Made by a program: the position numbers and the translations under genes. The notes under the pieces are model-generated. The model did no database searches, was not told the origin of the DNA, and worked only from the letters and a program-made list of their open reading frames with translations. From Escherichia coli (GTDB lineage: Bacteria; Pseudomonadota; Gammaproteobacteria; Enterobacterales; Enterobacteriaceae), in the NCBI RefSeq assembly GCF_045037415.1, contig NZ_CP173438.1: 64,000 bases of DNA; one strand, given 5' to 3'. Positions 58,177 to 59,860 of the stretch are shown here, in pieces. Positions within the stretch are counted from its first letter, which is position 1, and the number at the start of each line of letters is the position of its first letter.

Positions 58177-58189
58177 CCAGGAGGTTTAT

Positions 58190-59860
58190 TTGCAATTTGA
58201 CTACATCATTATTGGTGCCGGCTCAGCCGGCAACGTTCTCGCTACCCGTCTGACTGAAGATCCGAACACAACCGTGCTGCTGCTTGAAGCAGGCGGCCCG
58301 GACTATCGCTTTGACTTCCGCACCCAGATGCCCGCCGCGCTGGCGTTCCCGCTACAGGGCAAACGCTACAACTGGGCCTATGAGACGGAACCCGAACCGT
58401 TTATGAACAACCGCCGCATGGAGTGCGGACGCGGCAAAGGTCTGGGCGGTTCATCGCTGATCAACGGTATGTGCTACATCCGTGGCAATGCGCTGGATCT
58501 CGATAACTGGGCACAAGAACCTGGTCTGGAGAACTGGAGTTATCTCGACTGCCTGCCCTACTACCGCAAGGCCGAGACTCGCGATGTGGGCGAGAACGAT
58601 TACCACGGTGGCGATGGCCCGGTGAGCGTCATCACCTCCAAACCCGGCGTCAATCCGCTGTTTGAAGCGATGATTGAAGCGGGCATGCAGGCAGGCTACC
58701 CACGCACGGACGATCTCAACGGCTATCAGCAAGAAGGTTTTGGCCCGATGGATCGCACCGTCACGCCGCATGGCCGTCGCGCCAGCACCGCGCGTGGCTA
58801 TCTCGATCAGGCCAAATCGCGCCCTAACCTGACCATTCGTACTCACGCCATGACCGATCACATCATTTTTGACGGCAAACGCGCGGTGGGCGTCGAGTGG
58901 CTGGAAGGCGACAGCACTATTCCGACCCGCGCGGCGGCGAATAAAGAAGTGCTGTTATGTGCAGGCGCGATTGCTTCACCGCAGATCCTGCAACGCTCCG
59001 GCGTCGGCAACGCTGAACTGCTGGCGGAGTTTAATATTCCGCTGGTGCATGAATTACCCGGCGTCGGCGAAAATCTTCAGGATCACCTGGAGATGTATCT
59101 GCAATACGAGTGCAAAGAACCGGTTTCCCTCTACCCTGCCCTGCAGTGGTGGAATCAGCCGAGAATCGGTGCGGAGTGGCTGTTTGGCGGCACCGGCGTT
59201 GGTGCCAGCAACCACTTTGAAGCAGGCGGATTTATTCGCAGCCGTGAGGAATTTGCGTGGCCGAATATTCAGTACCATTTCCTGCCAGTGGCGATTAACT
59301 ATAACGGCTCGAACGCAGTGAAAGAGCACGGCTTCCAATGCCATGTCGGATCGATGCGCTCGCCAAGCCGTGGGCATGTGCGGATTAAATCCCGCGACCC
59401 GCACCAGCATCCGGGAATTCTGTTTAACTACATGTCGCACGAGCAGGACTGGCAGGAGTTCCGCGACGCAATTCGCATCACACGCGAGATCATGCATCAA
59501 CCCGCGCTGGATCAATACCGTGGCCGCGAAATCAGCCCTGGTGTCGAATGCCAGACGGATGAGCAGCTCGATGAGTTCGTGCGTAACCACGCCGAAACCG
59601 CGTTTCATCCGTGCGGTACCTGCAAAATGGGTTATGACGAGATGGCTGTGGTTGACGGCGAAGGCCGCGTACACGGGCTGGAAGGCCTGCGCGTGGTGGA
59701 TGCGTCAATTATGCCGCAAATTATCACCGGCAATTTGAACGCCACGACGATTATGATTGGCGAGAAAATAGCGGATATGATTCGTGGGAAGGAAGCGTTG
59801 CCGAGGAGCACGGCGGGATATTTTGTGGCAAATGGGATGCCGGTGAGAGCGAAAAAATGA
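58190..59860 (+). CDS. betA: Choline dehydrogenase (556 aa); best start is TTG at 58190
   Basis: [26 protein letters not shown]... GMC oxidoreductase; AGGAGG at 58179-58184 five nt upstream of TTG; no in-frame ATG nearby. Confidence 0.9.

What the first reader, a model, noticed from the sequence alone, without database searches (positions are those of the whole stretch)
58177..58192. betA appears to initiate at TTG
The only start codon in frame and correctly spaced (5 nt) after the strong AGGAGG at 58179-58184 is TTG at 58190; the resulting protein is 556 aa beginning [12 protein letters not shown]. There is no ATG alternative. A rare start codon could lower choline dehydrogenase translation.
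Basis: seen in the sequence. Interest (0 to 1): 0.2.

Follow-up and report, generated by a model that had tools for sequence, protein, structure and literature searches.

The report
Ordinary, conserved TTG start of betA
The choline dehydrogenase gene betA does begin with the uncommon start codon TTG behind a strong ribosome-binding site, but this is the normal, already annotated state in essentially all E. coli and many related genera, so it is ordinary.

Summary
The betB stop TAA lies at 58174-58176, AGGAGG at 58179-58184, a 5-nt spacer follows, and TTG at 58190 opens a 556-codon ORF ending at 59860. No ATG or GTG alternative exists.

It is not a peculiarity of this strain. The 41 nt around the start are identical in 5149 of 5183 E. 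coli records. No record carries ATG or GTG there, and RefSeq starts betA at this TTG in every record inspected.

Across 80 other species, TTG is shared by 31 (Enterobacter, Klebsiella oxytoca group, Raoultella, Citrobacter amalonaticus group, Pseudocitrobacter and others). Outgroups such as Pantoea, Erwinia, Tatumella, Cedecea and Pseudomonas use ATG. ATG is therefore ancestral and TTG an old derived state.

Published in-vitro initiation profiling of K-12 (INRI-seq) trapped ribosomes at this TTG in 5 of 5 replicates, with a stronger peak than at betB's ATG. The site as a whole is therefore not weak.

I found no evidence that TTG is specifically held by selection. It flips at about the neutral transversion rate.

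In passing: betB looks frameshifted here, but that extra A and one in prpR both turn the ST131-methylated motif GAGACC into GAGAACC. This is probably an assembly artefact.

The parts
58174..58176 (+). betB stop codon TAA, 13 nt upstream of the betA start
   Evidence: Sequence. RefSeq betB ends here in all records inspected.
58179..58185 (+). Shine-Dalgarno sequence AGGAGGT
   Evidence: Sequence. The predicted duplex with the 16S rRNA 3' end (ACCUCCUUA) is -11.0 kcal/mol. The GGAGGT core is invariant in the 32 TTG-start sequences, 31 species plus this window.
58185..58189 (+). 5-nt spacer TTTAT between AGGAGG and the start codon
   Evidence: Sequence. The spacer varies between genera (TTTAT, TTTTT, TCATTT) while the SD and TTG stay fixed.
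58190..58192 (+). TTG start codon of betA
   Evidence: It is the annotated CDS start in RefSeq records of six E. coli strains. Family profiles begin at residues 1-4. INRI-seq found a peak at the homologous K-12 position 327247 in 5 of 5 replicates.
58190..59860 (+). betA coding sequence (choline dehydrogenase, 556 aa plus stop)
   Evidence: The ORF is. The NCBIfam TIGR01810 betA equivalog scores 1023 bits against a cut-off of 732.1 and covers model positions 1-532 of 532. Pfam finds GMC_oxred_N and GMC_oxred_C.
56703..58176 (+). betB (betaine-aldehyde dehydrogenase), reading frame broken in this sequence by one extra A at 57336
   Evidence: The extra A turns GAGACC into GAGAACC and is probably an assembly artefact.
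56102..56689 (+). betI, first gene of the betIBA operon (context)
   Evidence: RefSeq annotation mapped onto the window.
53940..55973 (-). betT, divergently transcribed choline transporter gene (context)
   Evidence: ORF list and RefSeq annotation.

Best explanation
TTG at 58190 is the genuine, long-established start codon of betA, the last gene of the betIBA operon. It would be read by initiator fMet-tRNA, so the protein begins with Met: [14 protein letters not shown]... A strong Shine-Dalgarno sequence (AGGAGGT) sits 5 nt upstream and directs the 30S subunit to it. The site lies 13 nt after the betB stop codon, so some ribosomes finishing betB may also re-initiate there. The near-cognate codon probably costs some initiation efficiency relative to ATG, but the strong SD makes the site as a whole competent. 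This is the normal state of the gene in E. coli and in a large part of the Enterobacteriaceae, not a mutation of this strain. The position of the start, its conservation and ribosome trapping at the site in vitro are shown. Decoding as Met, partial coupling to betB and a quantitative penalty from TTG are inferred.
For: - **Sequence geometry:** stop, SD, spacer and TTG are as described.
- **Homology starts at the TTG:** TIGR01810 aligns residues 4-537 to model 1-532. NF002550 aligns residues 1-555. In the 571-aa upstream-extended ORF, Pfam GMC_oxred_N begins at residue 18, which is residue 3 from the TTG.
- **Annotation:** RefSeq starts betA at this codon in ST131, K-12-like, cattle and environmental strains.
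- **Conservation within E. coli:** the 41-nt junction is identical in 5149 of 5183 records. ATG and GTG versions of the 41-mer have no match in 5426 genomes.
- **Other species:** 31 species share TTG with the same GGAGGT and a 13-14 nt gap. In Klebsiella and Raoultella the gap is 14 nt, so the upstream frame relation is not conserved, which rules out the TTG at 58145.
- **Experimental support:** in INRI-seq (PMC9825163) the K-12 template carries the identical -30..+3 sequence. Peaks at the annotated betA start were 105, 89, 85, 70 and 91 CPM in 5 of 5 replicates. No alternative start was reported for betA.
- **Base rate:** about 3% of E. coli genes start with UUG, and UUG supports 10-100% of AUG-level initiation (bioRxiv 10.1101/063800).
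Against: - There is no in-vivo confirmation. Ribo-RET data tabulated in the INRI-seq supplement show no peak for betA, betB or betI, probably because the operon is not induced in that condition.
- No BetA N-terminal peptide was found in the part of an N-terminomics supplement that is held.
- The INRI-seq peak is an in-vitro signal on a short synthetic transcript and is not a calibrated rate.
- The original sequence paper (Lamark et al. 1991) could not be read.
Confidence: 0.92

Rival explanations
1. TTG is an adaptive throttle. It would be kept by selection to hold choline dehydrogenase below betaine-aldehyde dehydrogenase, limiting betaine aldehyde build-up. Alternatively it would make BetA synthesis depend on betB translation or on IF3 activity.
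For: - TTG has persisted across several genera, always with the same strong SD and a 13-14 nt gap.
- AUG-to-UUG switches are generally selected against and tend to be accompanied by stronger SD sequences (PMC5622118).
- ATG-start species have weaker SDs on average (-7.9 vs -11.0 kcal/mol) and longer gaps (median 24 nt).
Against: - In the 38-leaf clade that contains all TTG sequences, the first base of the start codon changes 4 times on the gene tree. That equals the mean of 4.0 transversion-type changes at 185 four-fold degenerate sites, so there is no sign of constraint on TTG as such.
- The TTG species form essentially one clade, so the SD and gap association is close to a single evolutionary event.
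- ATG relatives inside or next to the clade also have strong SDs: Trabulsiella -10.8, Pluralibacter -11.2, Cedecea -12.1.
- In vitro the betA site gives about twice the peak of betB's ATG site, from a less abundant template (55.6 vs 97.3 CPM).
Confidence: 0.12
2. The true start lies elsewhere: at the in-frame TTG at 58145, giving a 571-aa protein, or at a downstream codon.
For: The ORF is open from 58145.
Against: - No SD precedes 58145, and it lies inside betB.
- The 15 extra residues match no family profile.
- The betB/betA frame relation differs in Klebsiella and Raoultella (14-nt gap) and in one E. coli record with a 12-nt gap.
- The first downstream ATG would remove the FAD-binding GxGxxG motif.
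- INRI-seq reports no alternative start for betA.
Confidence: 0.03
3. The TTG is a strain-specific mutation or a sequencing error of an ATG.
For: This window does carry probable assembly errors elsewhere.
Against: The junction is identical in 5149 of 5183 E. coli records and in the K-12 template used for INRI-seq. No ATG or GTG variant exists in 5426 genomes.
Confidence: 0.01

Closest known systems
betA (b0311) of E. coli K-12, UniProt P17444 (accession and N-terminal sequence from my own knowledge), as annotated in RefSeq
   Same: The SD, spacer, TTG and first codons are identical. The K-12 INRI-seq template reads TCCAGTCCATATTCTAACCAGGAGGTTTATTTGCAATTTGAC. The K-12-type strains DH1 and J53 are 100% identical over the 41 nt. 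Length is the same at 556 aa, as is the betT / betIBA arrangement.
   Different: There are only a few amino-acid differences typical of phylogroup B2/ST131. The protein is WP_001159129.1 here and WP_001159094.1 in the K-12-like strain.
Other E. coli genes with annotated UUG starts (about 3% of genes)
   Same: A near-cognate start read by initiator tRNA and preceded by a Shine-Dalgarno sequence. The window holds a second example, ampH, at window 1013.
   Different: betA combines TTG with a near-perfect SD and a 13-nt distance from the preceding stop codon. No regulatory role has been shown, unlike the AUU start of infC, which is autoregulated through IF3 (own knowledge).
betA of Pantoea, Erwinia, Tatumella, Cedecea and Pseudomonas
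   Same: Orthologous choline dehydrogenase with the same N-terminal M(E/Q)(F/Y)DYIIIGAGS, placed downstream of betB.
   Different: These use an ATG start, mostly weaker SDs (-3.8 to -12.1 kcal/mol) and longer betB-betA gaps of 15-199 nt.

Membership tests
BetA choline dehydrogenase (NCBIfam TIGR01810 equivalog; GMC oxidoreductase) | Whole-protein score above the curated equivalog cut-off, with full-length model coverage | tested here: met
   1023 bits against a cut-off of 732.1; residues 4-537 align to model 1-532 of 532.
BetA choline dehydrogenase (NCBIfam TIGR01810 equivalog; GMC oxidoreductase) | N-terminal GxGxxG FAD-binding motif and both GMC domains | tested here: met
   GAGSAG at residues 9-14. 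PF00732 and PF05199 both match.
BetA choline dehydrogenase (NCBIfam TIGR01810 equivalog; GMC oxidoreductase) | Located in a betIBA operon next to divergent betT | tested here: met
   ORFs and RefSeq annotation.
BetA choline dehydrogenase (NCBIfam TIGR01810 equivalog; GMC oxidoreductase) | Choline-oxidising enzyme activity | not testable with these tools
   Needs an enzyme assay.
SD-led initiation at a near-cognate UUG start codon | In-frame TTG with a Shine-Dalgarno sequence about 5-9 nt upstream | tested here: met
   AGGAGG lies 5 nt upstream; duplex -11.0 kcal/mol.
SD-led initiation at a near-cognate UUG start codon | N-termini of orthologues align to this codon | tested here: met
   In 75 of 80 species the aligned codon is TTG (31) or ATG (44). 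Five Pseudomonas species start 2 codons upstream.
SD-led initiation at a near-cognate UUG start codon | Initiating ribosomes trapped at the codon | tested here: met
   Taken from published data, not my own experiment. The INRI-seq peak was found in 5 of 5 replicates at K-12 position 327247, on a template of identical sequence. This is in vitro only; in-vivo Ribo-RET shows no signal.
SD-led initiation at a near-cognate UUG start codon | Protein N-terminus is Met encoded by the TTG | not tested
   No BetA peptide was found in the held part of an N-terminomics supplement.
Translationally coupled gene pair (termination-reinitiation) | Overlap or very short distance between upstream stop and downstream start | tested here: inconclusive
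   The gap is 13 nt. In native E. coli pairs a +14 nt gap cut reinitiation by 40-80% and +38 nt almost abolished it (PMC10666635).
Translationally coupled gene pair (termination-reinitiation) | Downstream translation depends on upstream translation | not testable with these tools
   Needs reporter fusions with premature stops in betB.

The most novel reading that the evidence does not exclude
The TTG start, the invariant GGAGGT and the fixed 13-14 nt distance from the betB stop may form a tuned unit. It would set BetA output relative to BetB, or make BetA synthesis sensitive to IF3 or to ionic conditions during osmotic stress, so that betaine aldehyde does not accumulate. My evidence does not exclude this, but it gives it no positive support.
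Probability: 0.08. Interest if true: 0.35.

Novelty: already known. Interest (0 to 1): 0.07.

Why it matters
It matters little. The TTG start of betA is already the annotated start in K-12 and RefSeq, and it is shared by nearly all E. coli and many related genera. This check removes any suspicion of a strain-specific lesion, shows ATG is ancestral outside the core Enterobacteriaceae, and points to published evidence that ribosomes initiate at the site. The more practical result is a caution: the apparent betB and prpR frameshifts in this window sit at the ST131 methylation motif GAGACC and should not be read as real gene loss without read-level checks.

Tried and rejected
- **Selection holding TTG.** TTG is invariant in the 32 TTG sequences while 57 of 61 four-fold sites vary, but that set was chosen for having TTG. 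On the whole 38-leaf clade the start codon changes 4 times, against a mean of 4.0 transversion changes at four-fold sites. I rejected this as evidence of constraint.
- **SD compensation for TTG.** TTG species have stronger SDs than ATG species. However, the TTG species are essentially one clade, and neighbouring ATG species also have strong SDs. The result is suggestive only.
- **mRNA structure masking the start.** Folding 58150-58230 gives -16.7 kcal/mol, z = -0.52, no better than shuffles.
- **Internal promoter in front of betA.** Two weak 9-of-12 matches lie at 58145-58174, but the region has no more promoter-like sites than shuffles.
- **Upstream TTG at 58145 as the start.** Rejected.
- **betB frameshift as a real pseudogene that uncouples betA.** I first took this at face value, then judged it a probable artefact.
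- **Literature not available or silent.**
  - Lamark 1991, Li 2014 and Schmidt 2016 are not held.
  - No paper pairs betA or choline dehydrogenase with UUG, TTG or initiation codon for E. coli.
  - A look for betaine aldehyde toxicity in PMC3572970 found only reference-list mentions.

Full report
**1. What is in the sequence**

The stretch 58160-58210 reads TCCAGTCCATATTC-TAA-CC-AGGAGG-TTTAT-TTG-CAATTTGACTAC.
- TAA at 58174-58176 ends betB.
- AGGAGG occupies 58179-58184, followed by a 5-nt spacer.
- TTG at 58190 opens an ORF of 556 codons plus a stop, ending at 59860 and beginning (M)[13 protein letters not shown].

The mechanical ORF extends upstream to another in-frame TTG at 58145, with no ATG or GTG between the two. 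The first in-frame ATG downstream is codon 47, past the GxGxxG FAD-binding motif.

**2. Is this TTG the real start?**

Four independent lines say yes.
- **Homology begins there.** The NCBIfam betA equivalog TIGR01810 (1023 bits, cut-off 732.1) aligns residues 4-537 to model positions 1-532. NF002550 aligns residues 1-555. When the 571-aa extended ORF is scanned, Pfam GMC_oxred_N starts at residue 18, which is residue 3 counted from the TTG. The 15 extra residues match nothing.
- **The upstream extension is not conserved.** In Klebsiella and Raoultella the betB-stop-to-start gap is 14 nt instead of 13. One E. coli record has a 12-nt gap with the SD, spacer and TTG untouched. The frame relation to 58145 therefore changes between genomes.
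- **Annotation agrees.** RefSeq starts betA at this codon in all six E. coli records I opened, covering ST131, K-12-like, cattle and sediment strains.
- **Experimental data exist for K-12.** INRI-seq (Hör et al. 2022, PMC9825163) translated a synthetic transcript for every K-12 gene (-30 to +153) in vitro with retapamulin.
  - The betA template carries exactly the window's sequence.
  - The annotated start at 327247 gave ribosome peaks of 105, 89, 85, 70 and 91 CPM in 5 of 5 replicates.
  - No alternative start is listed for betA.
  - The in-vivo Ribo-RET column of the same table is zero for betA, betB and betI, so in-vivo confirmation is lacking.

**3. Is it unusual for this strain or species?**

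No.
- A 201-nt query around the site finds 5179 of 5426 complete E. coli genomes.
- The 41 nt from 58170 to 58210 are 100% identical in 5149 of 5183 records.
- Versions of that 41-mer with ATG or GTG in place of TTG have no match at all.
- In the window itself, 2 of 52 annotated genes start with TTG (ampH and betA) and 4 with GTG. This fits the roughly 3% UUG starts reported for E. coli (bioRxiv 10.1101/063800).

**4. Which state is ancestral?**

A scan of one genome per species returned 80 betA loci.
- The codon aligned to residue 1 is TTG in 31 species: Pseudocitrobacter, Enterobacter, Huaxiibacter, Lelliottia, Leclercia, the Klebsiella oxytoca group, Raoultella and the Citrobacter amalonaticus group.
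- It is ATG in 44 species: Trabulsiella, Pluralibacter, Cedecea, Kosakonia, Mangrovibacter, Pantoea, Erwinia, Tatumella, Mixta, Rosenbergiella and one Pseudomonas.
- Five other Pseudomonas species start at an ATG two codons upstream.

On a neighbour-joining BetA tree rooted with Pseudomonas, the root state is ATG. TTG marks the clade that contains E. coli, with a few ATG lineages inside it, for 4 parsimony changes in all. ATG is therefore ancestral and TTG is an old derived state. Within E. coli, TTG is fixed.

**5. Does TTG throttle BetA?**

General knowledge says UUG initiates less well than AUG, at 10-100% in reporter assays. AUG-to-UUG switches are selected against and tend to be compensated by stronger SDs (Belinky et al. 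2017, PMC5622118).

The local pattern looks compatible. All 32 TTG sequences have a -11.0 kcal/mol SD duplex and a 13-14 nt gap. ATG species average -7.9 kcal/mol with a median gap of 24 nt.

The evidence for tuning does not hold up on closer inspection.
- The TTG species are essentially one clade, so this is close to a single event.
- Neighbouring ATG species (Trabulsiella, Pluralibacter, Cedecea) have equally strong SDs.
- In the 38-leaf clade the first base of the start codon changes 4 times. That is the same as the mean of 4.0 transversion-type changes at 185 four-fold degenerate sites, so nothing indicates that TTG itself is held by selection.
- In INRI-seq the betA site gives about twice the peak of betB's ATG site, from a less abundant template (55.6 vs 97.3 CPM). 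The site as a whole is therefore not weak.
- The local mRNA is not unusually structured (z = -0.52).

My reading is that TTG is a tolerated, SD-compensated near-cognate start with at most a modest effect on output.

**6. Coupling to betB**

The 13-nt gap is in the range where native E. coli pairs retain only part of their termination-reinitiation. A +14 nt gap gives a 40-80% loss, and +38 nt nearly abolishes it (Huber et al. 2023, PMC10666635). Partial coupling is possible but untested. The INRI-seq result shows that de novo initiation on the isolated site works.

**7. The betB "frameshift" next door**

In this window betB carries one extra A at 57336 (GAGACC to GAGAACC). This breaks the frame, with a stop at 57420-57422. 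Only 3 of 4827 records share it, and PGAP flags those as frameshifted.

Compared with ST131 strain 4/1-1, the whole 64-kb window differs by one SNP and two single-A insertions. Both insertions convert GAGACC to GAGAACC; the other is at 39403 in prpR. The reference has only four GAGACC sites in the region.

Further observations point the same way.
- Strain 439 shows a different anomaly at a third GAGACC site (GAAACC).
- The prpR-site insertion occurs in two other assemblies that lack the betB one.
- GAGACC is 100% m6A-methylated in ST131 by M1.EcoMI (Forde et al. 2015, PMC4659465).

Sporadic, motif-restricted differences between otherwise identical genomes are what methylation-linked base-calling errors produce. 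This link is my inference, since I cannot see the reads. I therefore do not build on a loss of betB or of coupling in this strain.

**8. Verdict**

Novelty: already known. Interest is low.

Noticed in passing
window 57333-57339 (betB); premature stop at 57420-57422: One extra A turns GAGACC into GAGAACC and breaks the betB reading frame. It is shared by only 3 of 4827 E. coli records (strains 447, 439 and Esc20), which PGAP flags as frameshifted. It sits in the ST131 m6A methylation motif GAGACC and is probably an assembly artefact rather than a real pseudogene.
   Followed up: yes
window 39400-39406 (prpR): A second single-A insertion, again GAGACC to GAGAACC, breaks prpR near its 3' end. It is found in only 2 of 644 matching records (UID2309220015 and Esc14), and neither carries the betB insertion. 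Together with one SNP at 2717, these two insertions are the only differences from ST131 strain 4/1-1 across the 64 kb.
   Followed up: yes
window 4459-4464; L088 (strain 439), same site: At this GAGACC site strain 439 reads GAAACC, while the window and strain 4/1-1 read GAGACC. This is a third anomaly confined to the same motif. Strain 439 also lacks one T of a T-run in fdrA (window 47633), where the window's fdrA ORF is intact.
   Followed up: partly
window 1013-1015: ampH is the only other gene in the window annotated with a TTG start. lacI, codA, codB and yahE start with GTG, and the other 46 annotated genes start with ATG.
   Followed up: partly
window 56700-56714 (betB start region): betB begins GTG-ATG-TCC-CGA-ATG. 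INRI-seq lists an additional in-frame initiation peak at the second ATG (+9 nt, K-12 position 328723) besides the annotated ATG.
   Followed up: no
window 32062-32144 and 32156-32238 (between codB and prpE): Two 83-nt copies of a near-identical sequence lie 94 nt apart. They appeared as secondary BLAST alignments and are possibly REP-type intergenic repeats.
   Followed up: no
L003 (strain ET734), L004 (strain 123); hit H34 (strain M9): betA itself varies in some strains. It is a frameshifted pseudogene in ET734, is annotated only as a GMC N-terminal-domain protein in M9, and is a 562-aa product with a later stop in strain 123. About 4.5% of complete E. coli genomes (247 of 5426) have no match to the betB-betA junction, and 10 copies lie on plasmids.
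   Followed up: no
window 57412-57422: If the betB frameshift were real, the shifted frame would stop at TAA 57420-57422. That is only 2 nt after an ATG (57415-57417) in the original betB frame, a geometry that could allow reinitiation and keep ribosomes on distal betB. This is moot if the insertion is an artefact.
   Followed up: no
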